Below, in pieces: positions 1-43,216 of a stretch of DNA of 64,000 bases. The DNA comes from Squalus acanthias (Eukaryota): positions 34,164,001 through 34,228,000 of the forward strand of contig CM059432.1 in NCBI GenBank assembly GCA_030390025.1, written 5' to 3'. A program made the translations under genes and the position numbers. The notes beneath the pieces were generated by a model, which was given only the letters and a program-made list of their open reading frames with translations, was not told where the DNA came from and did no database searches. Each line of letters opens with the position of its first letter. The first letter of the stretch is position 1.

Positions 1-905
1 GACTTCCCTACTTTTATACTCCATCCCCCTTGCAATAAGGGCCAACAGTCCATTTGCCTTCCTAATTATTTGCTGTACCTGCATGCTAACTTTTTGTGTT
101 TCGTGTATGAGGACCCCCAGATCCCTCTGTACTGCAGCATTTTGTACTCTCTCTCCATTTAAATAATAATTTGATTTTTTATTATTCCTACCAAAGTGGA
201 TAACCTCACATTTTCCCACATTATACTCCATCTGCCAAATTTGTGCCCACTCACTTAACCTATCTATATCCCTTTGCAGATTCTTTGTGTCCCCCTCACA
301 ACTTGCTTTCCCACCTATCTTTGTATCATCAGCAAATTTGGCTACAGTACACTCGGCCCCTTCATCCAAGTCATTAATAAAGATTGTAAATAGTTGAGAC
401 CCCAGCACTTAGCCCTGTGGCACCCCATTAGTTACAGTTTGCCCACCTGAAAATGACCCATTTATCCCGACTCTCTGTTTTCAGTTAGTTAGCCAATCCT
501 CTATCCATGCTAATATATTACCTCCAACCCCGTGAGCTCTTATCTTGTGCAGTAACCTTTTGTGTGGCACCTTATCGAATTCCTTCTGGAAATCCAAATA
601 CACTACATCTACTGTTTTCCCTTTATCAACCCTGTTTGTTACATTCTCAAAGAACTCTAGTAAATTTGTCAAACAAGATTTCCCTTTCATAAAACCATGT
701 TGACTCTGCTTGATTGTATTATGATTTTCTGAATGTCCTGCTATTACTTCCTTAATAATGGATTCCAGCATTTTCCCAATGACAGATGTTAGGCTAACTG
801 GCCTATAGTTTCCTGCTTACTGCCTCCCTCCTTTCTTGAATAGGGGCGTTACATTTGCGCAGGGACCTCTCCAGAATCCAGGGAATTTTGGTAGATTACA
901 ACCAG
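1..905 (-). mobile_element. CR1-clade LINE fragment (RT region of ORF2), runs off window start
   Basis: ORF 481-771 has SQHGFMKGKSCLTNLLEFF...DVVYLDFQKEFDKVPH; a KFADDTK motif lies near 325-340 on the minus strand; frames are broken. Confidence 0.9.
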
Positions 906-910
906 CGCGC

Positions 911-1327
911 GGCTGGCTGCTCAGAGATGAGGGCTATCCGCTCTCCACCTGGCTCATGAATCCCCTCTGCAACCCCTACACTCCTGCCCAGCACTCATAT
1001 AAATGAGAGCCATGCCGTGAACAGGAACATCATCGAGCAGACCATCGGAGTGCTCAAGCAATGGTTCCGCTGCCTTGACCGCTCGGGAGGAGCCCTCCAA
1101 TACTCGGCTGAGTGAGTGTCCCATTTTGTTGTGATCTGCTGTACGCTCCACAACTGGGCCATCAAGAGGGCCCAGCCCTTGTCACCAGGGATTGTAGGAC
1201 CACCTCAGGAGGAGGAAGAGGGAGAGGAGGAGGAGGAGGAGGAAAAGGGTTGAGGAGGAGGCAGCCACTCAATCGGCCTTCCAGAAGGATGGTCCGTGAT
1301 CACCTCATCAGACTGCGGTTCCAATAA
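911..1327 (+). pseudogene. Harbinger transposase C-terminal remnant
   Basis: Reads GWLLRDEGYPLSTWLMNPL...RNIIEQTIGVLKQWFRCLDRSGGALQYS plus a poly-E tail, homologous to 8009-9169; frameshifted. Confidence 0.88.
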
Positions 1328-1492
1328 ATTAAACCCCAGATCTCCGTTGCTCACCACATCCCCATCATTCCATCTCTGTCGCTGGCCAAATCACAGCACA
1401 AAGCTGAAATGAGAGACACCACAAAAGAATCCAAACTGAATTAATAAATTTATCAATAATCAGTGAACATATATTTACAACAACAATATGAA

Positions 1493-3382
1493 CTATTCAA
1501 CCTTGTGTAATCCCTTAGTGCCTCTCGTTACTGTGCCTTTGCCTACTCTAGTGCTCCTATGAAGTGTTGGCCCAGTGGCTGCAGCACAGGCGGGTGGAAG
1601 GCTGCTGAGTGTCCATGTGGGAGACTTCAGATGGCCATGCAGGACGCCCTTGACCACCTGTGGGCCTGGAAGGCCTGGCTGTAGACTGCACCATCTCAGC
1701 ATGGGCGGCAGCAGTCTGGGCTGGCTGGATGACAGGCAGCGACAAGGGCAATGGCGGAGTGGCAGTGGTGGGAGCAGGAATGCTGTCATCCTAAGAGAGG
1801 TCAGTAGGTTCCTGCTCCATTGACCCACTGCCACTCCCCCGGGGCAGCACTTCAGCATCCCTAGCAATCTGTTGGAGCACAGATTGCTGACCTGCTGCGA
1901 CACCGTGAAAGCCCCGGTGGACAGTGGTAGACCCAGCCACGATGGCAGCAGTCAGAACTTGCATGGCATCAAGCTGAGACTGCATGAGAGCAGTCTGAGA
2001 TTGGATGCCACCAAGCATAGACTCCATTACAGCACTAAATGTTGCATAGCTTCTGCCTGTGCTGCAATGGAAGCTGCCAGATCGCCCATCACACGTGGCA
2101 TCAGGTCTGGGTCGCCACGGTCTCTCTGGGAGTCTACCATCCTTTGTAGACTGGAAATGATGGGCTCCATGGTGTGCACAGAGCCTTGTGCAATGTTGGA
2201 AGTGGACTCCTCCATGCTCCTTATCATTGTCGAAAGGCTCTCGGGCACCCTTGCCATTGCACCTATCATCTCCGTGTGCATGGCCATCACCCTTCTAAAC
2301 ACCTCCCCATCGAGGTCCTCATCTGAGTCCTGTGTAGTAGAACTCGCACGTGAACTCGCCCTCTGGGTAGCTGGCCCCCGAGCTACCCTTGCCCCCTGGC
2401 CTTGCTGGAGCCCACTTGTCCCTGGTACCTCACCCTGAGCAGATCCCGCTACTATACTAACCTCTAAAGAATGCATAATGCCAGTATCTGAGCTGGTGCC
2501 TGTGGGTGAGAGATGTGTGTTCTTCCACCTCCTCTTCTCCCGCCTTGCTCGCTACGGTGCCCTCAGAGACAGGCTGCTCAGGTGCTTGCTCATTTTCTGA
2601 AAGCATAAAGGCACAAGAGTCGGGTTAAGGTGAGGGGAGGGGTGCAGGAAGGGCGAAATGCATGCATGCAGCATGATTAGCTGGAAAATGTGAAACACTT
2701 GTGGGGTGAGGGGGAAGTGGGATGTGAGAAGGAGGGGTAGGGATGAACATACCGTTGTTGTCCCCAAGGGGGGTCAACATCGCCTGTGGCCACGGCGCCC
2801 ACCACCTGGCACCCAATAATCTGTAGCACTCTTTCCTCCAGTGCAGACAGTGGTTCGGAGTCGGCTTGTCCCCAACTGTGCACTCCTGCTCCCTCCTGTT
2901 GTGAGCCACCTTGGACTGCAAGAGAAAGGAAAGTGTGTGAGTGAGTGTGGAGCAATGTGTTTGGGTGGTGTGCTTGCTATAGTTGAATAGCTGTCATTGT
3001 GTGCAAGGTGTGAGATGTGAGAATGAGTGTTGGTAGGTAGAGATGTTGGTGGGTGAGTGCTGGAGGTGTGGTGCTTTGGGCAGTGTGTGAAGATGGGCTC
3101 AGATGGTGGTATGTAGCATTTGTTGAAGGATTGACTCACCCTGACCACCCGAGTGAGGTCATTAAATTTCTTCCTCCACCATGTGTGGGTCTTGGGGGCC
3201 ACAGTGTTGCCCGAAATGTGCTGGGCTACCTCCCACCACATGGTGCGGAAGACTTGCAGCGAGGGCCTCCTGCCACTTGTCGGGTAGAGCACCGCCCTCC
3301 GTCTCTCCACAGCGAACACCAATGCCTCCAATGCTTGATCGTGGAATCTGCGGGATCTCTCCCTGGGGCGTGGATCTTCCAT
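1493..3382 (-). pseudogene. Harbinger Myb/SANT-like accessory gene remnant, 3 exons (about 3382-3140, 2915-2753, 2596-1493)
   Basis: MEDPRPRERSRRF...RKKFNDLTRVVR followed by a GTGAGT donor; exons 2 and 3 are homologous to the intact gene at 9464-11421; frameshifts and stops present. Confidence 0.85.
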
Positions 3383-3729
3383 CAGTACAGCTGCTTGAGT
3401 CGTCCGGCTCTTTCTACGTGACCTGCAGCAGCTTGTTCAGCTAGCAATGCTGGGAATGAGGTCCTGCAGCATCAATGAACCACCCCTTTAAGAACTGAGA
3501 AAAGCCTGTGGCAATGATGACTAGCGATTAGACTGCACCTGATATTGGTTCACCCGTTGAGTGTAACGCCAATGAGCTTGGGCTTTAAGGCTTGAATTAG
3601 CGCCCCAATCATTTCTTTGAGCAGTGAGATTTAATTTTGCGTCCAGTCTAAAGCATTAGCACCTGGCGCTAATTCTCCAGCTTTTCTAATTTGACTGCCT
3701 ATTCCTGGGCTATAATGAATTTCTAGCCC

Positions 3730-6319: not shown

Positions 6320-6608
6320 TATGAACAGTGTTGAACTAGCCAAGAGTGAAGCTGAAAGAGACCGAGGAATCTTAGTAAACTCCACCCCAAACGGTCCAAC
6401 CAATGTAGAGCAGCAATCAACAAAGCCAACAGGATGTTGAACTGTATAGTGCAACAGTACAGTACAGATCAGAAGTGGTAATGATCAAGCTCTACAGGGC
6501 TCTGGTCAGACCACACCTTGCTCACTGAGCCCAGTTCTGGTCACTAAGAAATAAGAGAGATATTCGAGCACCAGCGGAAGTGCATAGAGAAGCCAAGGCT
6601 GATCCTTA

Positions 6609-7455
6609 GGGCTGGATTTTGTCAATGGGGGCGCGTTGGGGGCGGGACTGCTGGTTGTTGGGTTTCAGTCCCGCCCCCAACAACGTCTGGCCAACCCACG
6701 CTATTTTCCCTTGATTGACCTTGTTAAGCCCACCCTGCGGGCTTACCGGCCAATTAAGGGAAAGCCGGTGACATAGGACGTCAGCGAATAACGTTTCATC
6801 TGTCGAAAAATTTTTGACAGATGAATTGTCAGCATTTGACAGCTTTGAGAAGCTGTCAAACACTGACAATCTCTGTTCTAAGGTGAGCCCTTGCACAGAA
6901 GGCTCACAAAAACCTCTTTCCTCAGCAGAAATCAGATGGCTGCTGCATCTGAGAATGCAGCAGCAATTCTGTCATCTCTGCCATTGAGATGAGGCACCTC
7001 CGGATCCTCAAAGGTTGAAGCCTGCAGAAAAAAACAAAGGTGCGGAAACTTTTTCCAACACTTTGCACTCACCTCTCATACTTACCTCTCCACACTTGCA
7101 CCCATCACTCACCTCTACAGCGGACTTTTCGATCCCTCTCACCCCTGCAGACCCACTGCTCACCTCGCTGACCCTGGCGAGGTTCGCAGCCGTCGGGAAG
7201 CCCGCACTTGCAGGGGTAAAATGGGGATAAGTCTCAAAACTGCCTGTTAACTACCTGTTAACAGGCAGTTAATTGGCTCCAATCCCCTTCCCGCCTCGAA
7301 GAGACGGGTCCCTGCGAGAGTCGGGGACCCGCCTCCCGGGAAGATGGCCACGGAGGCGGTTTGGGAGCGGGGTCGGTAGCCGCTCCCAGTTTCTGCCATT
7401 TTCCCGGCAGTCCCGCCTCCAAACCCGCCTCCCCAGGGCTAGGAAAATTCCCCCC
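6609..7455. mobile_element. Harbinger-type MITE (related to 39628-40456 and 48322-49166)
   Basis: Ends GGGCTGGATTTT and AAAATTCCCCCC; body is homologous to the two other copies; flanks TTA/ATT do not match exactly. Confidence 0.8.
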
Positions 7456-8008
7456 ATTGTGTCAAGGGTCTGAGTTATGAGGAAAGACTCGAGAGACTTG
7501 GGGGTAAAAATTCAGTTGGTTGCGCCTCCCGTTAGCGCCTTAAATGGGTGCTAATGGGGCGTTAAGGCGCTAACGCCTGGGCGCAGCGCTGTTTGCGCCG
7601 CTCGAGAACTTAACTTGAGATTGTGCGGCGGCGCTAAAACTTACCGCTGCGACCACCTGCGCGCGCAGATTGTGACGTCATTCTGTGGTGCAACGCCCTT
7701 GGGGCGCCCCAGAGCGGAAATTGAGTGGCGCCCCCTGCCTTACCGCCTGGCGCTTCCAACGACCGGAAGACTGGAACGTTATCAATCGGTCTGGGGCTGG
7801 GGGGGGCGCTATTTAAAGGGGGCCTCTTCCTGTCTTTTTCTGTGGTCGACATTTATGCACCACTCGTTCTGAGAGAGAGAGAGAGATTCGGAGAGAGAGA
7901 GAGACTTCTACATTGACTCAACGCTTTGTGAGGTAGTTTTGCCTAGTTCATCCTAACTTTGCTGCTACTTTCGTTGCTGTACCTCATTACTTTTCTGGCA
8001 AAGAGAAG

Positions 8009-9169
8009 ATGGGGGCTGCAATGATTGGGGGCGTCGTCCTGCTCCAGCTCAATCGGAGCAGAGTGAGACGCAGACAGAGAGTGGCAATGATGGCCAGACG
8101 GAGGAGGCCCATCAGGCGCATGTACAGGAGAGCTTACCCTCCCAGGGTATATCGTGAACAGCTCTCCTACATCCACATGTCCGAGGAGCTGTGTTTGCGA
8201 AGGCTGCGATTCAGCAAGGAGGTGGTCACTGAGCTCTGCCACCTGCTGCAGCCAGATCTGCAGCCTCAGCTGAGGTCCAGGACGTCTCTGTCGGTGGCAG
8301 TGAAGGTCACAGTGGCCTTGAACTTCTACGCCACTGGCTCATTCCAAGCTGCTGTTGGGGACCTCGCCAATATCTCCCAGTTTGCGGTGCATCGCTGCAT
8401 TCGGCAGGTCACCAATGCCCTCTTCACAAGGAGACGAGACTTCATCTCCTTCCCTATGACCCCAGACAAGCAGCATGACCGTGCTATGGGCTTTGCGAGG
8501 GTAGCGGGCTTCCCCATGGTGCAGGGCGCCATTGACTGCACGCATGTGGCTTTGCGTGCTCCGCGAGAGAATGCAGAGGAGTTCCGGAACAGAAAGGGGT
8601 TCCATTCCTTGAATGTGCAGTTGGTCTGTGACCACAGACAGGTGATTCTCGCTGTCAATGCCCACTATCCGGGCAGCTGCCACGATGCTTTCATCCTGCG
8701 CCAGAGTACTGTGGCAGAAATTTTCGAGGCACCGCATCAGCCAGTTGGTTGGCTTCTGGGGGACAAGGGGTACGCATTGAGCACCTGGCTGATGACACCG
8801 CTCCGTGCGCCAAACACCCCTGCTGAGCTGCGGTACCAGGAAAGCCAACAAGCAACGAGGAACATTATTGAGCGCACAATCGGCGTGCTCAAACAACGAT
8901 TCCGCTGTCTGGACCATTCCGGAGGAGCCCTGCAGTACTCGCCTGAGCAAGTTTCCAAATTCGTAGTGGTGTGCTGCATGTTGCACAACATGGCAATCCT
9001 CAGGACGCAGCCAATGCCACCAGGCCTTGCAGCACCACAAGAGGAGGAGGAGGAAGAGGAGGAACAGGCCGAGGACGATGATCAGCAGCAGCACCAAGGC
9101 AGGAGGGCGGCCCACAATGGTCAAACTGCAAGGGCCGTCCGTCAACGACTAATAGCAAGCCGCTTCTAG
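8009..9169 (+). CDS. Harbinger DDE transposase (HARBI1-like family), 386 aa
   Basis: Uninterrupted ORF with HTH-type region (VTVALNFYATGSFQ) and motifs GAIDCTHV, NRKGFHSLNVQLVCD, YPGSCHDAFIL, LLGDKGY, RNIIERTIGVLKQRFRCL; TATTTAAA near 7810. Confidence 0.95.
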   Translation: MGAAMIGGVVLLQLNRSRVRRRQRVAMMARRRRPIRRMYRRAYPPRVYREQLSYIHMSEELCLRRLRFSKEVVTELCHLLQPDLQPQLRSRTSLSVAVKVTVALNFYATGSFQAAVGDLANISQFAVHRCIRQVTNALFTRRRDFISFPMTPDKQHDRAMGFARVAGFPMVQGAIDCTHVALRAPRENAEEFRNRKGFHSLNVQLVCDHRQVILAVNAHYPGSCHDAFILRQSTVAEIFEAPHQPVGWLLGDKGYALSTWLMTPLRAPNTPAELRYQESQQATRNIIERTIGVLKQRFRCLDHSGGALQYSPEQVSKFVVVCCMLHNMAILRTQPMPPGLAAPQEEEEEEEEQAEDDDQQQHQGRRAAHNGQTARAVRQRLIASRF

Positions 9170-9463
9170 GACCCCTGCCAGTGCTACAAACACGAATCAA
9201 CCCAGCACGCAACCCCTAAGCCGGCCAAGGCACCAATAATTCCAACCACCAGCCATGTATATTTTGAATACAGAAACTTATTTATTGTACAAACTCTGTG
9301 TGTGTCAATTCCTCATGAGAAACTCATAGAAATAAACACCAAAAAACAGTCAATAACATAACTGGTTCTCACAACCTGGAGATAATGTCCAAAACACTAA
9401 ACAAAAGTTGGGCCATGAACCTCGGCCTTTAATAAAAAAATGACCAGCATTTTGGCACACATC

Positions 9464-11421
9464 CTACTTTTTGCCCTTCGAGGGTGATCTCCTTCCCTTG
9501 CGCACTTCCCCCCTTCTAACCCTACTGCTCCTCCGTAATGGGACCTCAGTGGCTGCAGCAAGGCTGGTGGAAGGCTGCTGCTTGTCAGACCCTGACACTG
9601 CAGATGCCCCTGAAGGCCGGCCTCGACCACTTCTGGGCCTGGAGGGCCCGGCTGCAGACTGCACCAACTCTGCATGGGCGGCAGCAGTCTGTCCTACAGG
9701 CGGTGGCAAGTGCAGTGGAGAAGTGACAGTGTTGGCAGCAGGAATGCTGTCATCGTGAGAGAGGACAGCAACTCCCTGCTCGCCCGACACACTGGCACTC
9801 CCACGGGGCAGCACTTCAGCATCCGGAGCAATTTGCCTGAGAACAGATTGCTGGCCTGCTGCGGCGCGGTGACAGCCCCGGGGACATGTGCACGAACCAT
9901 CGAGGATGGCAGCAGTCAGTGCTCGCGTGGCCTCAATCTGAGTCTGCATGAGAGCAGGCTCAGATGGGTTCCTGGCAGCCAGTGACTGAATTGCAGCAGT
10001 AAGCTTTAGTGTGGCATCCGCCTGTGCTACAGCGAAGTGCTCCACACTCCTTGCCAGTGCCTCAATGCATTCGGGCACCCTTCCCACTGCACCCATGAGC
10101 TCAGTGTGCATGACCACCGCCTGGCTGTTCATTTCTGCAATCATCCGCTCCTCCTCTGCGTCCATTGCATTAGGAGTGTCTGGCATACTCTCCCTCTGGG
10201 GAGAAGGCTCCCGTTCTTCCCTCCCCCCCCCATGGCGTTGCTGCAGCCCGCTGGGTCCTGGAACTTCACCATCATCAGCCCCTTCCCCCCTGCTCCCCCG
10301 TTCTTCCCTCCCCCCCCCATGGCGTTGCTGCAGCCCGCTGGGTCCTGGAACTTCACCATCATCAGCCCCTTCCCCCCTGCTCCCCTCCGGGGAAGGCGTG
10401 TTCCCAGTGTGGCCATGGGCTTCCTCGGGAGAGGGTGGCACTGATGCTCCGGCTTCCTCCTCAGCTGCAGCATCACTCCCAGTGGCAGCTTCAGGGACCA
10501 TCTCCTCAGCTGGTGAATCACCATCTGAAAGCAGGGAGGTACAAGAGTGGCTTTAGCGTGAGGACAGGGTGGCAGTAAGGGAGGAATAAGTGCAGCGAGT
10601 TAGCAAGTTGGATTGAAAGTGTCAAAGGCTGGTATTGTGAGGGACAAGTGGAAGGACAGAGGACAAAAAGGTGATGACCTTACCATTGCTGTCCACAACG
10701 GGGTCGGCGTCTCCAGTGGCGACGGGACCGATCACCCGGCTTGCCACAATCCTGTGGACGCGCTCCTCCAGATCGCTGAGGGGTTGCAGCTGAAGCCGCC
10801 CTCCACCCGTCCGTTGCTGCTGTCTCCGATTATGAGCCAGCTTAGCCTGCAAGAAAAAGGACAGCATCTGAGTCAATATACAGCCATGGTCTTGCCTGAT
10901 GTGCCTCCCATAGGTGAATAGCCCTTACAATATGCAGCCATGGTCTTGCCTGATGTGCCTCCCATAGGTGAATAGCCCTTACAATATGCAGCCATGGTCT
11001 TGCCTGATGTGCCTCCCATAGGTGAATAGCCCTTACTGTATGCAAAGTGTGGAATGTGTGTGTGTGTTTGATGAAAGGGCCATAGGTGTTGGATGAGTGT
11101 TGTGCATTGGGGTTTTAAGACCCTCTGGCCATAGAGTGAGGTTGAGATGGAGGGATGGAGAGGTATTGAGAAAAAGCCACTCACCCTGACGACCCGAGTG
11201 AGGTCGTTGAACTTCTTGCGGCACTGGACATGGGTCCTGGGCACCATGCTCCTGGAGGAGACGCTCTGAGCCACCTCCCTCCACACTCTTCTGAACTCGC
11301 GTGGCAAAGGCCTCCTGCCACTCTCTGGGAACAGCATGCATCGTCTGCGCTCCACTGCGTCAACCAGAGCATCCAAGGCCCGCTCGGTGAAGCGATGAGC
11401 GCGTTCTCTCACCCTCTCCAT
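9464..11421 (-). CDS. Harbinger Myb/SANT-like DNA-binding accessory protein, 3 exons (11421-11185, 10846-10684, 10524-9464), 486 aa predicted
   Basis: Exon 1 MERVRERAHRFTERALDALV...VWREVA...RTHVQCRKKFNDLTRVVR; junctions AGG|GTGAGT, GCAG|GCT, AATG|GTAAGG, TTTCAG|AT; 237+163+1061=1461 nt, joining in frame with ORF 9464-10501. Confidence 0.88.
10210..10384. repeat. 87-bp in-frame tandem duplication in exon 3 of the Myb-like gene
   Basis: 29-aa unit GSRGEGADDGEVPGPSGLQQRHGGGREER occurs twice. Confidence 0.92.
10881..11036. repeat. 54-bp tandem repeat (about 3 copies) in intron 1 of the Myb-like gene
   Basis: Unit cagccatggtcttgcctgatgtgcctcccataggtgaatagcccttacaatatg at 10881, 10935 and 10989. 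Confidence 0.92.
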
Positions 11422-12197
11422 TCTTGGCAGCAAAATGGATTACAGGTCTCTCCAGGCTGAGATTCAAGGCTGCAATGAGCAGGGTGTGGCTGGGGAGCAA
11501 GTGGCCCCCCCCGCTTTAAGAAGTGTCCGGCGTCAGTGTGTCTGTGTTCCCGCGCTAACTGGCAGCAGCTGCGCTGCGCTCGTGCGCTGAGTTAGCGCCT
11601 CACTCCTAGGCCTTTGCGCCTTAAGAGAGGTGTGCAGCGCCTAATTTAGCGCTCCACTCACCTCCCGGGGCGGTAAAAGTGAAGTTTCCTGTCAGTGCCG
11701 ATAATTAGCGCCAGGCGCTAATATTTGCGCGCGGACGATATTTGCGCCCCAAATGGGGCGCGACCTAATTTCTACCCCTTGGGCTTTTAAACGTGGAAAG
11801 GTAGCGTCTGAGAGGTGATCTTATCGAGGTTTATGAGATTGTTAATGGTAGAGAGAAAGTTAACCTGGAAAATTACTTTAAATTAAACTGCGGGAATAGA
11901 GCAAAGGGATGCAGATTATAACTAGTAATAAGTAATTTTAGCACAAATGTCAGGAAATTCTTCACACAGAGAGAGGGATCAACGTGTGGAATAAACTTCC
12001 AGATAGAGCAACGGAGGCACTTAAACAATTGGCTGCTAAAATGAGGGGATCTCTTTGGATGGATGGATTAAGGTGGGTCAAATTGCTTTCCTCATTTGTA
12101 CCTGTCTTATGATCTTGTGAACCCTTTAACAATTATAAAGAGCAAAGCAAAAGGCCACAGAAAACAAACTGAAGGGCCCTCTGCAAGAGTTTCTCAC

Positions 12198-15475: not shown

Positions 15476-17193
15476 ATGCATGGACTGGTAGGGCTAGAGG
15501 ATGAGGGGGAGCAGCATGGAAGACAGGAGAGAGCAGGAGCAGCTCGCAGAAGAGAGAGGAGGTGGAGGGCACTGCGCAGGAGGCCATACTCAAAGCAGGA
15601 CTTCAGAAAGCACTTCTCCTTCATTAAGTTTTCGGTGGATCAATGTCTGAGGTGCCTACGCTTCACCAAGGAGGCTGAGCTATGTCACCTGCTGCAGCTA
15701 CGACTCGAGCCTCGAACCAAGGTATGGACAGCACTGCCTGTGGCTGTCAAAGGCACCGTGGCCCTTAACTTTTAGGCCACAGGCTCCTTTCAGGCTGCAG
15801 CAGGTGACATCAATGATATTACATAGAATTACATAGAATATAAAAGCACAGAAACAGGCCATTCAGCCCAACCAGTCCATGACGGCGTTTATGCTCCACT
15901 TGAGCCTCCTCCCATCCTTCCTCATCTAATTCTATCAGCATAACCCTCAATTCCCTTCTCCCTCATATGCTTGTTTAACCTCCCATTAAATGCATCGATA
16001 CTATTCACCTCAACCACTCCCTGTGGTAGCGAGTTCCAGATTCTCACCACTCTCTGGGTAAAGAAGCTTCTTCTGAATTCCCGATTGGATTTCTTGGTGA
16101 CTATCTTATATTGATGGCCTCTAGGTTTGCTCTTCCCCACAAGTGGAAACACTCTCTCTGTATCCACTCTATCAAAACCTTTCATAATTTTAAAGACCTC
16201 TATTAGGTCACCCCTCAGCCTTCTCTTTTCAAGAGAAAAGAGACCCAGCCTGTTCATCCTTTCCTGATAGGTATAACCTCGCATTTCTAGTATCATTCTT
16301 GTAAATCTTGCTTGCACCCTCTCCAGTGCCTCTATATCCTTTTTGTAATAGGACGACCAGAACTGTGCACAGCACTCCAAGTGTGGTCTAATCAAAGTTC
16401 GATACAAGTTTAGCATAAAGTCACTACTTTTCAATTCTGTCCCTCTAGAAATAAACTCTAGTGGTTGGTTTGCTTTTGTTATGGCATTATTGACCTGAGT
16501 CACAACTTTTAGTTGACATATTACAGTTTACAGTACACCACTGTATCAGGGAGGTCACCACGATCTCTACAGCAGGAGAACACCTACATCTCTTTCCCAA
16601 TGGACAGAGCGAAGCAAGACGAGAGAGCACTAGGCTTCACCCACGTTGTAGACTTCTCCAGGGTCCAAGGTGCCATAGACTGCACCCACATTGCCTTGTG
16701 TGCTCCCCATCACCAGCCTGGCATCTTCATCAATAGAAAGGGATTAGGTTCCAGGCTGGCTACTGGGCGACAAGGGCTCTGCCCTTCAGACTTGGCTCAT
16801 GACTTCTGTCAGCTTCTCCCTTCGCTCCCTTCACATTAAAAGCTAACCCTCGTCCATCTCTTTCCTTTCAGATGCTAAAAATGTCGAGGCCCTGCAAAGC
16901 TGGCCTACAACGAGGCTATGCTGCCACCAGAAACATCCTCGAGCAGACAGTTACCGTGCTCAAGCAATGCTTCCGCTGCCTGGGCTGTTTGGGAGGAGCT
17001 TTGCAGTACACCCCTGAATGGTCATCTGCTGCATGCTGCGTAACTTTGCCATCATGAGGGATGAGCCTTTACCTGGGCAGCAACAAGAGGAGGAGGAGGA
17101 GGAGGAGGAGGAAGAGCGAAAACAACATCGACCACCAGTGCCCCAAGCTGCCAAAGCTCTTATAGAGCAGCTCATCTAAGAGCGCTTCACCTG
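15476..17193 (+). pseudogene. Harbinger transposase pseudogene interrupted by a CR1
   Basis: LRFTKE...ALPVAVKGTVALNF*ATGSFQAAAGD, then after the CR1 VQGAIDCTHIAL...INRKG and TRNILEQTVTVLKQCFRCL...GGALQY, with a poly-E tail. Confidence 0.88.
15824..16517 (-). mobile_element. 5'-truncated CR1 LINE
   Basis: ORF 15922-16503 is the CR1 ORF2 C-terminus; duplication ATATTACA at 15816-15823 and 16518-16525. Confidence 0.9.
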
Positions 17194-17424
17194 AACCATC
17201 CCTCCCATCCCCAATACACCAACGGTTCCTCAATCCTTATCACCACCATCTTTACTACCACTATCCGATTGCCTTCCTTCAGTACAACCTTATGGGTCTT
17301 GCCCTAACTTCATGAAAATATTAACAGCAACACCAAAACCCAGAACAAAAAACAAATTTTTCAAACAACTCAATTCCATCTGTGTCCAATAGTTAACAGA
17401 AATAATTATGAATCTCCATATGCA

Positions 17425-19035
17425 AGTCCTTAGTGCCTGTCTACTATGCTTATTTATTTATCCTAGTGCTCCTACAAAGCATTTCCCCAGTAGTTACAGC
17501 TTGAGTGATGGAAGGCTGCTGACGACACTTCAGATGGCCGTGGTGGGCAACCTCGGGCAGTTCTGGGCCTTGAGGGCCAGGCTGCAGGCTGCATCATCTC
17601 AGCGTGGGCTGCAGCAATCTGGCCCAGCTGGCTGTGTGGCACCAGCAAGAGCACTGGCGAAGTGGGTGGCGTGGGAGCAGGCATGCTGTTATCCTGAGGG
17701 ACTCTCCTGGATCTGCGACTCAGCACTCCTCCGGCTCTGCACGAGAACAGAATGCAGAAGTGACGTCTGGAAGCCCCTGTCAACACTGGCCCCCAGAGCC
17801 AAGGAGGCAGTTAGCTGAGCTTACATGGCAGCAGTGTGAGCTGCCAAGAAAGCTGTCAGAGCTGTCAGCAGAGGATCTATCATGGTGGGCACCACTGACA
17901 TGTTCATGGAGCCGACCGTGTTTGACAGAATGGTCTCCATGCTCTGCGTGAAGCCCTGATACAAGTTGGAAGTGGACTCCTCCATGCTCTGCGACATTGT
18001 ACACAAGCCCCCAGTGCACCTAGTATTTTCTGGTGTATGCCCATCAGCCTTCTTCGGTAGCCTGTGCCCTCAACATCAACATCTGAGTCCTCTGCAGCAG
18101 AGCTAGTATGCAATCTCGGCCTCCGGTGAGCTGGCACCACTTGCATCCTATCACCCTGCCCTAGCTCCTGCACAATTCTACCCGCTGAGTCACCATATGA
18201 AGACCCATCCTCTAGCCTCTAGTCTAAAGTACATGTGATGCCAGTCTCTGAGCTGGTGCTTGCTAGGATCAGATTGTGTGACGCTGCATCTTCAGGAAGG
18301 CTGGCCTCCTCTTCCTGAAGTGGCACAGGGCCTCGACATTTTTAGCATCTGAAAGGAAAGAGACGGACGAGGGTTAGCTTTTAATGTGAAGGGAGCGAAG
18401 GGAGAAGCGGCTGGTGAAAGCAGCTACAGGTTGTCATGCTGAGTGTGTAGGGTGAGATAGAAGTAAGAAGGAAAAAAGAAGATATGGTGTGAAAAATCCA
18501 TGAGTGATGTATCCTCCTGTGTTGTCACTTGCCATGGCCATGGCTATCCCACTACCCATGATGTTCAATATGTTTCCTTCCACAGGGGAGAAGTGTGCAG
18601 GCAGTCTCAGCCTCCTCAGGTGGCAGCCTCCTGTCTCAAGTTGTGCGCGACCCTCTCCTGCAAGAAAGAATGTAAGTGCGTTGGTGACAGTCGTGAAGTG
18701 TTTAGAGAATGTGCATGCCATGGTAGAATAGTTGCTCTGCAGTGTGTAATGTGTGAGGGAATGTTGTGAGGCTGGAGGTGGTGGAGGTGTGAGCAGAGAG
18801 TAAGAGAGCAAGATTCTTACCTTGATAACTGTGGTAAGGTCATTGAACTCTTTCCGGGATTGTAACCATGTCCTGGGAGCTAAGCTTTTGGCACTGTACT
18901 CCTCCGCAACCTCTTCCCACTGTTGGCGAATGTGTTGCCTGGAGGGGTCCCTGGGAGGGAACAGGATCTCCCTCCTCCTGTCCACCTGCTATACCAGGGT
19001 CTCGAATGTGACATTGGAGAACCTTGTTGCCCTAT
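17425..19035 (-). pseudogene. Harbinger Myb/SANT-like gene remnant of element C
   Basis: DRRREILFPP...WEEVAEE...RTWLQSRKEFNDLTTVIK|GTAAGA; exon-3 motifs SMEESTSN and QIAAAHAEMMQPAAWPSRPR; many lesions. Confidence 0.8.
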
Positions 19036-19384
19036 CTTGACCTCTTAAATCTGGGCCGATTCCCTGCTGTTCTGCAGTCAAAGTGCACTTCCCATTTAAG
19101 AGTTGCTGCCTGCCTTTAAGTGGCACCAGAGATCCCCAATTTCCCAGCCAATGAATAGCACTGGCTGCACACGTAAATCATTTTATTGAAGTCCCAGCTC
19201 AAATTTAACATGATGCCTGGGACCATGTGAAGAGGCGCGTGCAGCATGTGACCCGCCCTCCCCTTGCACGCCCATTTTTAGGCGCAATCAAAATTCTAGG
19301 CCATATATATTTGCCTGGGACTTGCAGCAAACCAGACAAGGAGGCTAATGTCAACGTGTGAACTATCAGCCAGTCCTTTATGTA

Positions 19385-25605: not shown

Positions 25606-26278
25606 ACCTCTGTGCAGTGCTTGTCAGTGTTTGCAGCACCTCAATGCTGTCGAACACTGACAGCACAAATGTCAAATTTGCGCATGGTCCCTTTAAGGAA
25701 ACCAGCTGATCATAGAGAATTACAGCATGGAAGGAGGCCATTTCGGCCCATCAAGTCCGCGCCGGCCAACAAAGAGCTATCCAGCCTAATCCCACTTCCC
25801 AGCTCTAGGTCCGTAGCCCTGCAGGTTACAGCATCCCAAGTGCACATCCAAGTACTTTTTAAATGTGGTTAGGGTTTCTGCCTCTACCACCCTTTCAGGC
25901 AGTGAGTTCCAAACCCCCACAACCCACTGGGTGAAGAAATCAAGTAACGTCATCAGACCCGCTTACTTCAATTGACCGGAAAACGCGCTGGGCGGGCTTA
26001 ACAAGCCCATTCAGCGTAAAATTCTTTTCACAGAGCGGGATGGAGCCAGCAGCAGGGTCGTACCCCGCCTCCGACCCCAGCCGCCCCGGACCCGCCTACC
26101 GAGGCGACATCATGGCCTGAGTGTGCAATGCCACAGGAGATCGACTAATATATAATAGATATACTTAGGTGCAATTATATATTTTACTCGGACTTTAAAA
26201 AGGATATTATTTTTTTCTGCATTTTACAATTTTAAAATAACTATTCCTTGAACAAATTTCCAACGGCTGCTACCCAGA

Positions 26279-27792
26279 CTCACACTCACACACTCACATA
26301 CTCACACACACACTCACTCACACACTCACATACTCACACACTCTCACTCACACACTCACACAAACACACACTCTCTCACACACACACACACACTCACTCA
26401 CACACACTCACTCACACACACAAACTCTCACACACACACTCTCACTCACACACAAACTCTCACTCACACACACTCACTCACACACACAAACTCTCACTCA
26501 CACACGCTCACTCACACACTCACTCACACACTCACTCACACACGCACACTCACTCACACACACACACACTCACTCACACTCACTCACACACACACTCTCA
26601 GTCGCACACACTCTCACACACTCACACAAACACACACTCTCTCACACACACACACTCACTCACACACACTCACTCACACACACAAACTCTCACACACACA
26701 CTCTCACTCACACACAATCACTCACACACACAAACTCTCACTCACACACGCTCACTCACACACTCACTCACACACTCACTCACACACGAACACTCACTCA
26801 CACACACACACACTCACTCACACACACTCTCACTCACATACAAACTCTCACTCACACACACTCACTCACACACAAACTCTCACTCTCACACACACACACA
26901 CTCACACACACACACACACACTCACACACACACTCTCACACACACACTCACTCACACACTCACACACACAAACTATCAGTCACACACACACACAAACTAT
27001 CAGTCACACACACACACACTCACACACACACACACTCTCACACACACACTCACACACACTCACTCTCACACACTCACTCACACACACACACACTCTCACA
27101 CACACACACTCACTCACACACACTCTCACTCACACACACACACACACACTCATTCACACACACACACTCTCACTCACTCACACACTCACACACACACTCA
27201 CTCACACACTCTCACTCACACACACACTCACCCACACTCCCACTCACACTCTCTCACACACTCTCACTCACACACACTCTCACTCACATACACACATGTT
27301 CACACACACTCTCACTCACACACTCTCACACACACACTCACACATACTCTCACACACTCACTCACACACACACTCTCTCACACACACACTCTCACTCACA
27401 CACACTCACACACACTCACTCACACAGACACTCACTCACACAGACACTCTCACTCACTCACACACGCTCACTCACACACACTCACAAACACTCACTCACA
27501 CACACTCACAACACTCACTCACACTCACTCACTCACACTCACTCACACACACACACATACTCACACGCTCACACACACATACACGCTCACTCACACACAC
27601 TCACAAACACTCACTCACACTCACTCACTCACTCACTCACACACACTCTCACTCACACTCACTCACACACACACACATACTCACACGCTCACACACACAT
27701 ACACACTCAATCACACTCATTCACACACACATACACTCACACACACTCACACACTGACACACACGCTCACACACGCAGACACACACTCACAC
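26279..27792. repeat. 1.5-kb compound (CA)n/(CTCA)n microsatellite
   Basis: Directly visible. Confidence 0.97.
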
Positions 27793-27809
27793 TCCACCTC
27801 TCTGCTCAC

Positions 27810-28570
27810 TCCCCTTCCCCACTCCTCAAAGCCCTCCAGTTTGACTCTGATACAGTTGAAGCTGGTGGTAGCCCAGGACAGGCTGTGATGTGTTCTATGA
27901 GACTTCTTTCCAGCTAGTTGTCTGGTGACGAGCTTTCTTCTGATTGACAGTTGCTGACTGTACAATCACCCTGCTCCCTGTGGCAATGGATCCTGATTGG
28001 ACACCCTTCGTCAACTCTCCTTTTTTGGGTTAATATTTTTCTCTGGTATAATTTAGTCCCTATTGTTGGATCCTGTGCTTTGCGAATCCCTGGCTATTCT
28101 AGATTTTTTTTAAATTTTTGAATGGGATTTACTGAACGATCACGAAAAGAGAATAGAGAAAAACATTAGCTCGGTTCCAAAGGGCTTTTATTTAAAGAGG
28201 AAGATTTACAACGCTGACTAGTTATGGAAATGCGGCTGTTTGGATATTACCTGGTTCTACTGAACGTGAAGCAAGTCATGGCAAGTTACCCAGTTTGGTG
28301 GTAAGTTGGGAAAAGTTTCTCAACGTTTTCTTGAAACTTTTTTTTTTACTTGGGGTGTATCTCTCACTAAATGTTGCGTTGTAGATTCTCTGCTGGGTAA
28401 AGCTAATGTAAAATATAGAGAGAGCTTGTACTTTAACCCTCAGCATCCTCCAGTTGTTTAGGTTACAGGATACAGTATCAGGTGTTTGAACTGCATGCCT
28501 CACTTTTTATCGGGAAGTCGGAGAGGGGAGAGCGGAGGTGGTAGAGGCTGACACCCGGTGCTGTGCAGTA
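27810..28570. promoter_or_regulatory. Candidate, possibly bidirectional, promoter / first-exon region
   Basis: Unique sequence between two microsatellites; CTGATTGG (CCAAT on minus) at 27993-28000; CpGs more frequent than in flanking unique DNA; outward-facing donor-like sites at 27809 (minus) and 28568 (plus). Confidence 0.35.
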
Positions 28571-28599
28571 ACTTTTTCTTGCGTGTGCATTTATTTGTT

Positions 28600-29300
28600 T
28601 TTGTGCGTGTATGATTTTGTGTGTCTGTGTGTGTGTCTGTCTGTGTCTGTCTGTCTGTCTGTGTGTGTGTGTGTCTGTCTGTCTGTGTGTGTGTCTGTCT
28701 GTCTGTGTGTGTGTCTGTGTCTGTCTGTGTGTATGTCTGTGTGTATGTATGTCTGTGTGTGTGTGTGTGTCTGTCTGTCTGTGTCTGTGTGTCTGTGTCT
28801 GTCTGTGTGTGTGTGTCTATGTGTATGTAGGTAGGGTATCTGTGTGTCTCTGTGTGTCTGTGTGCGTGTCTGTCTGTGTCTGTGTGTGTGTCCGTGTGTG
28901 TGTGTCTGTCTGTGTGCGCCTCTGTGTGTGTGTCTCTGTGTGTGTGTCTGTCTCTGTGTCTGTGTCTGTGTGTGTGTCCATGTGTGTGTCGGTCTGTGTC
29001 TGTCTGTCTGTGCCTCTGTGTGTGTGTGTGTCTCTCTCTCTCTCTCTGTGTGTGTCTCTCTGTGTGTGTGTGTGTGTGTCTCTCTCTCTGTGTCTCTGTG
29101 TGTGTGTCTCGCTCTCTCTCTGTGTCTCTGTATGTGTGTGTGTGTCTCTCTCTGTGTCTCTGTGTGTGTATGTGTGTCTCTCTCTCTGTGTCTCTGTGTG
29201 TGTGTGTGTGTGTCTCTCTCTCTCTGTCTCTGTATGTGTATGTGTGTGTGTCTCTCTCTCTGTGTGTCTCTGTGTGTGTATGTATGTGTGTCTATGCTGG
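28600..29300. repeat. Compound (TG)n/(TC)n microsatellite
   Basis: Directly visible. Confidence 0.97.
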
Positions 29301-32654: not shown

Positions 32655-32910
32655 ATAGCAGCACAGGGGCAGAGGAGTTAGCAGCATAGGGGCGGGGAGG
32701 AGTTAGCAACACGGGGGGGAGGGAGGAGTTAGCAGCACGGTGGGGGGGGAGGAGTTAGCACGGTGGGGGGGGAGGGGTTAGCAGCACAGGGGGGGAGGGG
32801 TTAGCAGCACGGGGGTGGGGAGGGGTTAGCAGCACGGGGGTGGGAGGGGTTAGCAGCACAGTGGGGGAGGGGTTAGCAGCACGGGGGTGAGAAGGGGTTA
32901 GCAGCACAGG
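32655..32910. repeat. G-rich minisatellite, about 24-26-bp unit
   Basis: ggggttagcagcacgggggtggga and variants, about 10 copies. Confidence 0.9.
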
Positions 32911-32913
32911 CTA

Positions 32914-34217
32914 GGGGTCCTGGAGTCTGGGTATAACTGGGGTGGGGGTCCTGGAGTTTGGGTATAACTGGGGTCGGGGTCCTGGAGTCTGGTATAACTG
33001 GGGTGGGGGTCCTGGAGTTCGATATAACTGGGTTGGGGGTCCTGGAGTCTGGTATAACTGGGGTGGGGGTCCTGGAGTTTGGGTATAACTGGGGTGGGGG
33101 TCCTGGAGTTCGATATAACTGGGTTGGGGGTCCTGGAGTCTGGTATAACTGGGGTGGGGGTCCTGGAGTTTGGGTATTACTGGGTTGGGGGTCCTGGAGT
33201 TTGGGTATAACTGTGGTAGGGGTCCTGGAGTTTGGGTATAACTGGGGTGGGGGTCCTGGAGTTTGGTATAACTGGGGTGGGGGTCCTGGAGTTTGGTATA
33301 ACTGGGGTGGGGGTCCTGGAGTTTGGTATAACTGGGGTGGGGGTCCTGGAGTTTGGTATAACTGGGGTGGGGGTCCTGGAGTTTGATATAACTGGGGTGG
33401 GGGTCCTGGAGTTTGGGTTTCACTGGGGTGGGGTCCTGGAGTTTGGGTATAACTGGGGTGGGGGTCCTGGAGTTTGGGTATAACTGGGGTGGGGGTCCTG
33501 GAGTTTGGGTATAACAAGGGTGGGGGTCCTGGAGTTTGGTATAACTGGGGTGGGGTCCTGGAGTCTGGTATAACTGGGGTGGGGGTCCTGGAGTTTGGTA
33601 TAACTGGGGTGGGGGTCCTGGAGTTTGGTATAACTGGGGGGGGTCCTGGAGTTTGGTATAACTGGGGTGGGGGTCCTGGAGTTTGGTATAACTGGGGTGG
33701 GGGTCCTGGAGTTCGGTATAACTCGGGGGGGGGTGGGGTCCTCTGGTTTGGTATAACTGGGGTGGGGGTCCTGGAGTTTGGTATAACTGGGGTGGGGGTC
33801 CTGGAGTTTGGTATAACTGGGGTGGGGGTCCTGGAGTTTGGTATAACTGGGGTGGGGGTCCTGGAGTTTGGTATAACTGGGGTGGGGGTCCTGGAGTTCG
33901 GTATAACTCGGGGGAGGGTGGGGTCCTCTGGTTTGGTATAACTGGGGTGGGGGTCCTGGAGTTCGGTATAACTGGGGTGGGGGTCCTGGAGTTTGGTATA
34001 ACTGGGGTGGGGGTCCTGGAGTTCGGTATAACTCGGGGGGGGTGGGGTCCTCTGGTTTGGTATAACTGGGGTGGGGGTCCTGGAGTTCGGTATAACTCGG
34101 GGGGGGTGGGGTCCTCTGGTTTGGTATAACTGGGGTGGGGGTCCTGGAGTTCGGTATAACTCGGGGGGAGGGTGGGGTCCTCTGGTTTGGTATAACTGGG
34201 GTGGGGTCCTCTGGTTT
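32914..34217. repeat. G-rich 30-bp minisatellite (about 40 copies)
   Basis: Unit ggggtcctggagtttggtataactggggtg with variants. Confidence 0.97.
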
Positions 34218-42322: not shown

Positions 42323-43216
42323 GGGGTAAAAATTCAGTTGGTTGCGCCTCCCGTTAGCGCCTTAAGAGGGCGCTAATGGGGCGCAAAGCCGCTAACGCCC
42401 GGGCGCAGCGATGTTTGCACCGCTCGAGAACTTAACTTGAGATTGTGCGGCGGCGCTAAAACTTACCGCTGCGACCACCTGCGCGCGCAGATTGTGACGT
42501 CATTCCATGGTGCAACGTCCTTGTGGCGCCCCGGAGCGGAAATTGAGTGGCGCCCCCTGCCTTACCGCCTGGCGCATCCAACGACCAGAAGACTGGAACG
42601 CTATCAATCGCTGTGGGGCTGGGGGGGGGCGCTATTTAAAGGGGGCCTCTTCCTGTCTTTTATTGTTGGTGGCATTTTTGAACTACGCATTCTGAGAGAG
42701 AGAGGGAGAGACTTCTGGAGAGATTCAACGTTGTGGGAAGGAGTTTTGGGTACTGAGCAGCACTTTGCAGGTTCATTTTGATTTGCCATTCCTTGTATCG
42801 ATTTAGCAGAGACTGTGGGAGCTGCACTCTGAGCTCTTTGCCTGGTACTCTCCATTGTTCTTTCCAGCACATTTGATGTGCAAGTCTCTCCAGGCCGAGA
42901 TTCAAGGCTGCAATGAACAGGATGTGGATGGAAAGCAAGATTAACCATCCCCTTTAAGGACTGGCCCGTGCCATTGTGTGTGTGTTCCATTGCTGACTGA
43001 CATTGCATGAGCTTCGCCAGCGCTCTGAGGTAGCGCCTCACTCCTTGGCCTTTGCGCCTTAAGACAGGTGTGCAGCGCCTGATTTAGCGCTCCGCTCACC
43101 TCCCGGGGCGGTAAAAGTGAAGTTTCCAGTCAGTGCCGATAATTAGCGCCAGGCGCTAATATTTGCGTCCAGACGATATTTGCGCCCCAAATGGGGCGCA
43201 ACCTAATTTCTACCCC
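42323..43216. mobile_element. Non-autonomous deletion derivative of element B (894 bp)
   Basis: Same TIRs as 7501-11778; about 400 bp left and 350 bp right are highly similar to B; TSD ATT (42320-42322 and 43217-43219); both ORFs absent. Confidence 0.93.

What the first reader, a model, noticed from the sequence alone, without database searches (positions are those of the whole stretch)
7501..11778. Structurally intact, potentially active two-gene Harbinger transposon in a jawed vertebrate
Seen: near-perfect 12-bp TIRs, an exact TTG duplication, an uninterrupted 386-aa transposase with the GAIDCTH, HD, GDKGY and IER motifs, and a convergent Myb/SANT-like gene. Three GT-AG-bounded exons of that gene join into one open 486-aa frame that the ORF track shows only in pieces. 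CpG-rich ends are preserved and the element cleanly splits an old CR1. Established: PIF/Harbinger transposition needs both a DDE transposase and a Myb-like DNA-binding protein, and amniotes mostly keep only domesticated copies (HARBI1, NAIF1/MSANTD-type). Inference: this may be a young, natively competent cut-and-paste system whose substrates lie in the same window.
Basis: partly seen in the sequence, partly recalled or inferred. Interest (0 to 1): 0.8.

Follow-up and report, generated by a model that had tools for sequence, protein, structure and literature searches.

The report
Intact shark Harbinger transposon, activity unshown
This is a structurally complete cut-and-paste "jumping gene" of the known Harbinger kind, with both of its genes unbroken, one copy of a very abundant family in what is likely a shark or ray genome; it is a plausible candidate for a mobility test, but nothing here shows that it still moves.

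Summary
The anatomy is confirmed: 12-bp terminal inverted repeats (11/12), a TTG duplication, an open 386-aa DDE transposase, and a convergent three-exon Myb/SANT gene that joins to 486 aa. All four splice sites are conserved in a diverged paralog, and homologues run across both junctions. The element splits an old CR1. The best 64 transposase homologues are all from sharks or rays, so the amniote framing does not apply. Public runs show a very abundant family under six organism labels. This copy is near the family majority (about 0.2-0.7%) but not identical to it. Open frames are expected at that divergence without selection. Expression, splicing and insertion polymorphism could not be shown. 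The transposase has Q at two conserved positions (N277, H280) on the catalytic helix, and the Myb protein lacks about 45 residues; both are probably family-wide. The 42323-43216 element belongs to a related non-autonomous family (91%/84%). Intact two-gene vertebrate Harbingers are published (269 in a sea krait). I found no study of shark families, which earlier surveys called absent. The scan already noted shark Harbingers elsewhere in this genome. Verdict: new member of a known kind; current activity about 20%.

The parts
7498..7500 (.). Left target-site duplication TTG
   Evidence: could be read as a 5-bp CTTGG with GGG ends, but the MITE (TSD ATT, same GGGG ends) fixes 3 bp
7501..7512 (+). 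Left terminal inverted repeat, 12 bp
   Evidence: 11 of 12 complementary to the right end
7513..7830 (.). Left subterminal region: CpG-rich, three GCGCTAA/TTAGCGC motifs (7532, 7567, 7631; predicted Myb-protein sites) and a TATA-like TATTTAAA at 7810-7817
   Evidence: function inferred
8009..9169 (+). Harbinger DDE transposase, 386 aa; D176, D226, E288 (D252 also conserved); R284-x3-E288-x6-K295 intact; unusual Q277 and Q280
9170..9463 (.). AT-rich spacer between the convergent genes, with AATAAA at 9331 and 9431 (+) and 9281 (-)
   Evidence: use as poly(A) signals inferred
9464..10524 (-). Myb-like gene exon 3; includes a perfect in-frame 87-bp duplication (10210-10385) and lacks about 45 codons present in relatives
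10525..10683 (-). Predicted intron 2 (159 nt, GTAAGG...TTTCAG)
   Evidence: both sites conserved in the paralog
10684..10846 (-). Myb-like gene exon 2 (163 nt)
10847..11184 (-). Predicted intron 1 (338 nt, GTGAGT...TTGCAG) with a 54-bp repeat x3.2 (10874-11044)
11185..11421 (-). Myb-like gene exon 1, Myb/SANT-like domain; its ATG is the first one downstream of the right end
   Evidence: PF13873 E=1.3e-9
11479..11766 (.). Right subterminal region, CpG-rich, five GCGCTAA/TTAGCGC motifs (11552, 11592, 11646, 11705, 11715)
11767..11778 (-). Right terminal inverted repeat
11779..11781 (.). Right target-site duplication TTG
7457..7497 (+). Old CR1-type ORF2 remnant left of the insertion (continues at about 6390-6607 beyond a second inserted element)
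11782..12010 (+). Old CR1-type ORF2 remnant right of the insertion, same frame as the left piece
42323..43216 (+). 894-bp non-autonomous relative (MITE): identical 12-bp ends, TSD ATT, 91% over 396 bp (left) and 84% over 365 bp (right) to the element
   Evidence: loose ends at 11441, 11501 and 11587 in X2, X17 and X19 resemble its sequence

Best explanation
This is an intact, fairly recent copy of a very abundant two-gene Harbinger DNA transposon family in what is likely a shark or ray, and it likely arrived by cut-and-paste transposition into an old CR1 and has likely drifted neutrally since. Shown: the ends, the 3-bp duplication, both open frames, the catalytic residues and the abundance of the family. 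Inferred from zebrafish Harbinger3_DR and rice Ping/Pong: the spliced Myb-like protein would bind the repeated GCGCTAA motif near both ends and bring the transposase into the nucleus and to the ends. The DDE transposase would then excise the element and insert it at a loosely palindromic 15-bp target with a 3-bp stagger. The same two proteins would also move the related MITE family in trans. Whether this copy or any sibling is still expressed and mobile is not shown; the bulk of the family's amplification likely lies in the past.
For: Anatomy. Catalytic D176/D226/E288 match the majority of 120 homologues, and the copy departs at only 5 of 136 conserved columns, tied best of 121. The predicted structure is confident (pLDDT 89.2); its top five structural matches are all transposases (piggyBac Z 10.1, rmsd 5.1, 229 aligned; Tn5 Z 8.8, rmsd 5.8, 245 aligned). 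Gene model: all four splice sites are conserved in a diverged in-window paralog; P0006, P0122 and P0129 align across junction 1, and P0122, P0123 and P0129 across junction 2. Motif: 8 hits in the two 300-bp ends against a shuffle mean of 0.29 (0 of 2000 shuffles reach 8); 18 of 19 hits in the window lie in Harbinger-related ends. Target: the empty site matches the Harbinger3_DR consensus (PMC3016246) at 11 of 15, reached by 4.4e-4 of window positions. Abundance: summed contig depth on the element is at least 4,600-fold (X1) and 13,500-fold (X2) that of the unique flank (not a copy number); 20 of 24 listed runs under six organism labels hold 0.37-0.89 of its words. Drift: 10 of 32 listed places inside the element show another letter in at least 75% of depth in both X1 and X2. 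At 0.23-0.72% random substitution each frame stays open in 90% to 72% of simulations.
Against: Age is weakly bounded. The unique flank also differs from X1 and X2 (6 of 420; 5 of 419 plus a gap), so those runs are probably another species or population, and a young subfamily limited to this genome would not be visible in them. Only 40 of 302 variant rows and 15 of 153 joints were displayed. Two of the 10 differing places may not be private: 10874 starts a tandem repeat, and 11643 carries the MITE's letter in the runs. The MITE's target scores only 7 of 15 (background 0.12). The DNA-binding, nuclear-import and excision steps are borrowed from other families and were not tested here. Q277 and Q280 and the 45-aa gap in the Myb protein are departures whose effect is unknown.
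Confidence: 0.65

Rival explanations
1. The family is still transposing in the source species, and this copy (or a near-identical sibling) is a natively competent source of both proteins.
For: Both frames are open, with catalytic residues, splice signals, TATA-like and poly(A)-like signals in place. CpG-rich ends are unmutated. Divergence from the family majority (0.23-0.72%) is no larger than about half the divergence of the unique flank from X1 and X2 (about 1.3%), so the insertion may postdate the split from those samples. Of five listed transposase places where both letters are common in the runs, four are synonymous (random expectation 0.23), which suggests selection on recent parent lineages; the numbers are small.
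Against: The window's letter at 8108, 8401, 8706 and 8959 is nearly absent from X1, and at 8401 and 9617 from X2; three of the four transposase changes alter the residue, as neutral drift would. At the epaulette shark mutation rate (7e-10 per generation, PMC10587355) 0.23% equals about 3 million generations (1.7-17 million over its interval), if that rate transfers and the differences are private. Near-identical sequence under six organism labels points to a main burst older than those lineages. Open frames alone are weak evidence.
Confidence: 0.2
2. The family is a full-length passenger: its transposase is impaired (Q277 and Q280 on the helix bearing E288; shortened Myb protein), and it amplified by borrowing the enzyme of a related Harbinger.
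For: Position 277 is N in 104 of 115 homologues and Q in none; position 280 is H in 96 of 117 and Q in 4. Both lie on predicted helix 271-297 with E288. The Myb protein lacks about 45 aa found in P0122, P0123, P0125, P0128 and the in-window paralog. Other Harbinger lineages occur in the same window.
Against: The transposase is otherwise among the two most consensus-like of 121 sequences, which a long-unselected gene would not be. N to Q needs two changes in one codon, and neither place is among the 40 listed variant rows, so it is probably an old family trait. High-depth X17 contigs (records 13, 14) run through the Myb gap without an insertion, so that too is shared by the family. Variation between sublineages is mostly synonymous.
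Confidence: 0.12
3. The two genes are host-domesticated (a HARBI1/NAIF1-type pair) and only look like a transposon.
For: Database homologues are named 'putative nuclease HARBI1'; both frames are open.
Against: The element has intact TIRs and a TSD, sits inside a CR1 remnant, and belongs to a family with thousands-fold excess depth. The database name is a family label: many of those entries are truncated or lack catalytic residues (E288 in only 75 of the aligned homologues).
Confidence: 0.03

Closest known systems
Harbinger3_DR / Harbinger3N_DR of zebrafish (reconstructed; Sinzelle et al. 2008, not held; known here through passages of PMC3016246, PMC2836001, PMC9710019)
   Same: Two genes (DDE transposase and Myb-like protein), 3-bp TSD, a repeated subterminal motif, a non-autonomous partner, and an insertion site matching its 15-bp target consensus at 11 of 15.
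   Different: Harbinger3_DR had to be rebuilt from consensus sequences, while this copy is open as it stands. The TSDs here are TTG and ATT, not CWG. No sequence comparison with Harbinger3_DR was possible.
Harbinger-Snek of sea kraits (PMC8437027, parts 1-2 of 4 read)
   Same: Massively amplified vertebrate Harbinger with intact two-gene copies (269 in L. colubrina, 1 in L. laticaudata), non-autonomous derivatives, and activity suspected but not demonstrated.
   Different: Snek arrived by horizontal transfer and has RNA-seq support. The present lineage has many diverged relatives across sharks and rays (45-66% protein identity), which fits long residence; expression is untested here.
NuwaI / NuwaII groups of the PHIS superfamily (PMC4482050, part 2 of 4 and passages read)
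   Same: DDE plus Myb/SANT genes, TIRs of 12 bp starting GGG, length about 4.3 kb (NuwaI mean about 4462 bp), same order of catalytic residues on strands and helices; C and G flank the TSD as in NuwaII.
   Different: TTG is one mismatch from both CWG (NuwaI) and TNA (NuwaII), and ATT fits neither. That survey reported PHIS elements absent from sharks.
Elasmobranch proteins annotated 'putative nuclease HARBI1' (e.g. P0001, P0002, Pristiophorus japonicus)
   Same: Nearest sequences found, 63-66% identical, same DDE_Tnp_4 domain.
   Different: Other families or decayed copies; none of the 115 aligned at position 277 has Q; no hit above 66% over the whole protein (77% over residues 240-340).
Rice Ping/Pong with mPing (PMC2836001, passages read)
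   Same: Two-protein requirement and MITE mobilisation in trans serve as the working model.
   Different: Naturally active and experimentally shown; plant elements, usually TAA targets.

Membership tests
Harbinger superfamily, broad sense (PHIS; includes Harbinger3_DR) | DDE transposase of the DDE_Tnp_4/HARBI1 type with intact triad | tested here: met
   PF13359 E=5.2e-38, full profile; D176, D226, E288
Harbinger superfamily, broad sense | First D in the strand region, second D between strand and helix, E within a helix | tested here: met
   Model: D176 in strand 171-182, D226 at the start of helix 226-232 after strand 213-221, E288 in helix 271-297; pattern from PMC4482050
Harbinger superfamily, broad sense | Second gene with a Myb/SANT-like domain | tested here: met
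   PF13873 E=1.3e-9; full-length homologue P0122 E=2e-85
Harbinger superfamily, broad sense | TIRs (5 bp or more, usually under 60, starting A or G) and 3-bp TSD | tested here: met
   criteria from PMC4482050
Harbinger superfamily, broad sense | Both proteins needed for transposition; Myb protein binds subterminal motifs and the transposase | not testable with these tools
   Only a candidate motif was found; needs binding and transposition assays
PIF/Harbinger group, strict sense (Han et al. 2015) | TWA target-site duplication | tested here: not met
   0 of 2 clean sites (TTG, ATT); two sites cannot define a family preference, so it is not filed in this subgroup
PIF/Harbinger group, strict sense (Han et al. 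2015) | HTH motif in the transposase | tested here: inconclusive
   Helical region 59-140 in the model; only weak matches to small helical domains (Z 4.3-4.4); no Pfam HTH hit
NuwaI | CWG TSD; TIR 12-61 bp starting GGG | tested here: inconclusive
   TIR criterion met; TSD 0 of 2 exact, TTG one mismatch; extended site 11 of 15 to the CWG-centred Harbinger3_DR consensus
NuwaII | Target C|TNA|G | tested here: inconclusive
   Element: C|TTG|G, flanks fit, one mismatch inside; MITE: G|ATT|A does not fit
NuwaI/II versus strict PIF/Harbinger | Placement in the DDE-domain tree | not tested
   No named reference sequences of these groups were available from the tools used
Currently active transposon | Near-identical copies at many sites; insertion polymorphism | tested here: inconclusive
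   No genome held; the copy differs from the majority in X1/X2 at 10 of 32 listed places, but those runs are probably not the source population; single-copy joints fall below the 15 of 153 shown
Currently active transposon | Both genes transcribed, Myb gene spliced | tested here: inconclusive
   See Tried and rejected
Domesticated HARBI1/NAIF1-type genes | No TIRs or TSD, no related copies (criteria from PMC9710019) | tested here: not met
   TIRs, TSD and a very abundant family are present

The most novel reading that the evidence does not exclude
Sharks, which earlier surveys listed as free of Harbingers, host a family of many thousands of copies that is still mobile, and this copy encodes a natively working two-protein system with an altered catalytic helix (Q277, Q280) and a shortened Myb partner. 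It would be a vertebrate Harbinger that jumps without reconstruction, with a 15-bp target preference and ready-made MITE substrates.
Probability: 0.2. Interest if true: 0.7.

Novelty: new member of a known kind. Interest (0 to 1): 0.38.

Why it matters
The mechanism is known and intact vertebrate copies are in print, so the element does not change how Harbingers are understood. Two things give it moderate value. First, surveys concluded that these elements are absent from sharks (PMC4482050) or absent from elephant shark with other cartilaginous fish untested (PMC9179366). Whale shark and grey reef shark genome papers mention the category only in repeat summaries. A family this abundant, with a complete autonomous-type copy, fills that gap. 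Second, the one vertebrate Harbinger that the papers I read report as mobilised was a reconstruction, so an unbroken pair of genes with native MITE donors is a cheap assay candidate. If active it would give a target-selective vertebrate transposon and a test of whether the conserved N and H on the catalytic helix matter. No solved structure of a close relative turned up.

Tried and rejected
Whole-genome copy count: no genome is held. Expression: no RNA holder listed. Two runs guessed to be RNA (X17, X19) were laid. None of the 15 of 153 joints shown is a splice joint, the list is led by high-depth DNA joints, and three contigs bridge exon-intron borders unspliced (X17 record 16, X19 records 22 and 23). 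These runs may be DNA or read-through of intronic copies, so this is no evidence either way. Polymorphism: X1 and X2 each have a 319-base low-depth contig that matches 11778-11888 and not the element end. With 12 other letters and 2 gaps it is a paralogous CR1, not the orthologous empty site; a true single-copy empty-site joint would fall below the displayed rows. Complex prediction of transposase 1-340 with the helical part of exon 3: no answer, score 0.01, alignments not used; no evidence either way. Foldseek against PDB gave no match at E<=0.001; the sequence search of solved structures gave one chance-level hit. The search with Myb exon 1 for longer proteins found only 1 of 158 candidates. 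The region search for closer transposases found none above 77%. A 5-bp TSD reading (CTTGG) was rejected by the MITE. The repeat finder over the whole window was swamped by simple repeats. Sinzelle 2008 and Smith 2012 are not held. The Squalomix preprint has no occurrence of Harbinger, PIF or 'DNA transposon' in its main text; its supplements are closed and may bear on shark repeat content. No supplements of any paper were read. Look-ups of earlier findings by sequence or relatives were empty.
Full report
Observation. The ends match at 11 of 12 bases, TTG flanks both, and removal restores one CR1-type reading frame (the CR1 label is recalled from the peptide). The transposase frame 8009-9169 is open for 386 aa and hits PF13359 over the whole profile at E=5.2e-38. 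The three minus-strand exons join to 486 aa, and exon 1 hits PF13873. CpG observed/expected is about 1.0-1.1 at both ends against 0.42 for the window. The boundary could also be read as a 5-bp duplication with GGG ends, an ambiguity described for NuwaII elements (PMC4482050). The related element at 42323-43216 has the same GGGG ends with TSD ATT, which fixes 3 bp.

Host. Of the 120 listed transposase homologues (356 passed the threshold), 112 are from sharks or rays, including the best 64; the best is 65% identical. The host is therefore likely an elasmobranch, which is an inference.

Gene model. The two donors used are two of three donor-like sites in the gene region, and acceptor 1 is one of two sites passing a strict pattern; acceptor 2 did not pass that pattern. 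All four sites are conserved in a decayed, diverged paralog at about 1500-3400 in the window. Independent proteins align across the junctions: P0006 at 46% over residues 2-113, and P0122 over nearly the whole product at E=2e-85, with P0123 and P0129. The model is supported by conservation, not by transcripts.

Transposase integrity. D176, D226, D252 and E288 agree with the majority of 120 homologues, and the copy departs at only 5 of 136 conserved columns, tied best of 121 with a median of 22. The predicted structure is confident (pLDDT 89.2) and its best matches are DDE transposases (piggyBac Z 10.1, rmsd 5.1, 229 aligned), though Foldseek found nothing at E<=0.001. Two departures deserve attention: Q277 (N in 104 of 115, Q in none) and Q280 (H in 96 of 117, Q in 4), on the helix that bears E288. 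N to Q needs two changes in one codon, and neither place is among the 40 of 302 variant rows shown, so it is probably a family trait; that is an inference from a cut table. The Myb protein lacks about 45 residues present in relatives and carries a perfect 29-residue duplication. X17 contigs run through the gap without an insertion, so the gap is shared, while an X2 joint skips the duplication, so that feature varies.

Cis elements. GCGCTAA or its complement occurs 8 times in the two terminal 300 bp (shuffle mean 0.29; 0 of 2000 reach 8), and 18 of its 19 occurrences in the window lie in Harbinger-related ends. By analogy with the 9-bp subterminal motif bound by the Harbinger3_DR Myb-like protein (PMC9710019, passages), this is the likely binding site; it accounts for part of the CpG richness. 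The empty site matches the Harbinger3_DR target consensus (PMC3016246, passages) at 11 of 15, which 4.4e-4 of window positions reach; the MITE's site scores 7 of 15, which is background.

Family size. Twenty of 24 listed runs, from 11 studies and six organism labels, hold 0.37-0.89 of the element's words. In the two DNA runs laid, summed depth over the element exceeds the unique flank by at least 4,600-fold and 13,500-fold (medians about 35,000 and 127,000). The tool warns that this is no copy number, and it includes relatives down to 90% and MITE ends, but the family is clearly very large. The window also holds two decayed autonomous-type relatives and further related MITEs.

Age and activity. 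Of 32 listed variable places inside the element, 10 show another letter in at least 75% of depth in both X1 and X2 (my count from its table). Two of these may not be private (10874 at a tandem repeat; 11643 matching the MITE). This gives about 0.2% as a rough floor, and the 0.80 word share gives about 0.7% as a rough ceiling. At such divergence each frame stays open in 72-90% of substitution-only simulations, so intactness is weak evidence of function. At the epaulette shark rate (PMC10587355, passages) 0.23% is about 3 million generations, with a tenfold range. Against that reading: the unique flank differs from X1 and X2 at 6 of 420 and 5 of 419 bases, more than expected at a diversity of 0.002 (P=0.002 for five or more). 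Those runs are thus probably another species or population, and a young subfamily limited to this genome would be invisible in them. The insertion may be as young as or younger than that split. Splicing and polymorphism could not be decided (see Tried and rejected). I put current activity at about 20%.

The MITE. It shares the 12-bp ends and the motif, but is 91% and 84% identical to the element's ends. Loose ends in X2, X17 and X19 resemble its diverging sequence, so it belongs to a separate abundant family. It is a plausible trans substrate, not a recent derivative of this copy.

Mechanism. Shown: the parts. Inferred from Harbinger3_DR and Ping/Pong (PMC2836001 and PMC9710019, passages): the Myb-like protein would bind the subterminal motifs, bind the transposase and bring it to the nucleus and the ends, and the DDE enzyme would excise the element and insert it with a 3-bp stagger.

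Comparison and novelty. It is a member of the Harbinger superfamily in the broad sense. Its subgroup is unresolved because TTG and ATT fit none of TWA, CWG or TNA exactly and no tree with named references was built. Intact two-gene vertebrate copies are published: 269 in Laticauda colubrina, with RNA reads over both genes in L. laticaudata (PMC8437027, parts 1-2 of 4). Expanded, expressed Harbingers are reported in a newt (PMC5741667, passages). A survey counted 88 PIF/Harbinger, 11 NuwaI and 22 NuwaII families with two intact frames (PMC4482050). A naturally mobile animal family is reported in a nematode (PMC13668399, passages). For sharks, that survey said absent, PMC9179366 (part 1 of 6 and passages) called for testing other cartilaginous fish, and two shark genome papers list the category in passing (passages). 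Searches listed no dedicated study, and searches listed no natively active vertebrate Harbinger. The library lacks most subscription papers, Repbase and Dfam were not searchable, and no supplements were read. The scan had already noted shark Harbingers elsewhere in this genome, including a near-intact copy with a frameshifted Myb gene; these are unchecked notes. Verdict: real, a new member of a known kind, interest 0.38.

Noticed in passing
window 6608-7456: A second Harbinger-like non-coding element (GGG...CCC ends) splits the same CR1 only about 44 bp upstream of the main insertion; two relatives at about 75% identity lie at 39628-40450 and 48328-49166.
   Followed up: partly
window 809-3729: Decayed two-gene Harbinger of another family, same convergent layout and same Myb intron positions, with frameshifts and stops; right end at 3729.
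   Followed up: partly
window 15608-19045: Third, more decayed two-gene Harbinger, fragmented and interrupted.
   Followed up: no
window 45565-46245: About 680-bp minus-strand MITE related to the element's ends (about 76-82% over the first 89 bp), carrying the GCGCTAA motif; TSD not clean.
   Followed up: partly
window 7501-7900 and 11410-11778 against 42323-43216; table 1: Transversions outnumber transitions between element and MITE (20 to 18 and 35 to 29) and among variable places in X1 (133 to 100, summed), which is unusual for neutral decay in a vertebrate genome (recalled expectation); unexplained.
   Followed up: no
window 7930-8008: A donor-like GAG|GTAGTT followed by a pyrimidine-rich stretch just before the transposase ATG could be a small 5' UTR intron; an upstream ATG lies at 7855.
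   Followed up: no
protein P0123: A predicted protein in which a RING/B-box-like N-terminal part (recognised by eye, not scanned) is joined to exons 2-3 of a Harbinger Myb-like gene; may be a gene-prediction chimera or a real fusion.
   Followed up: no
window 26163-29150 and 32909-34000: Long low-complexity arrays and a 30-bp G-rich tandem repeat.
   Followed up: no
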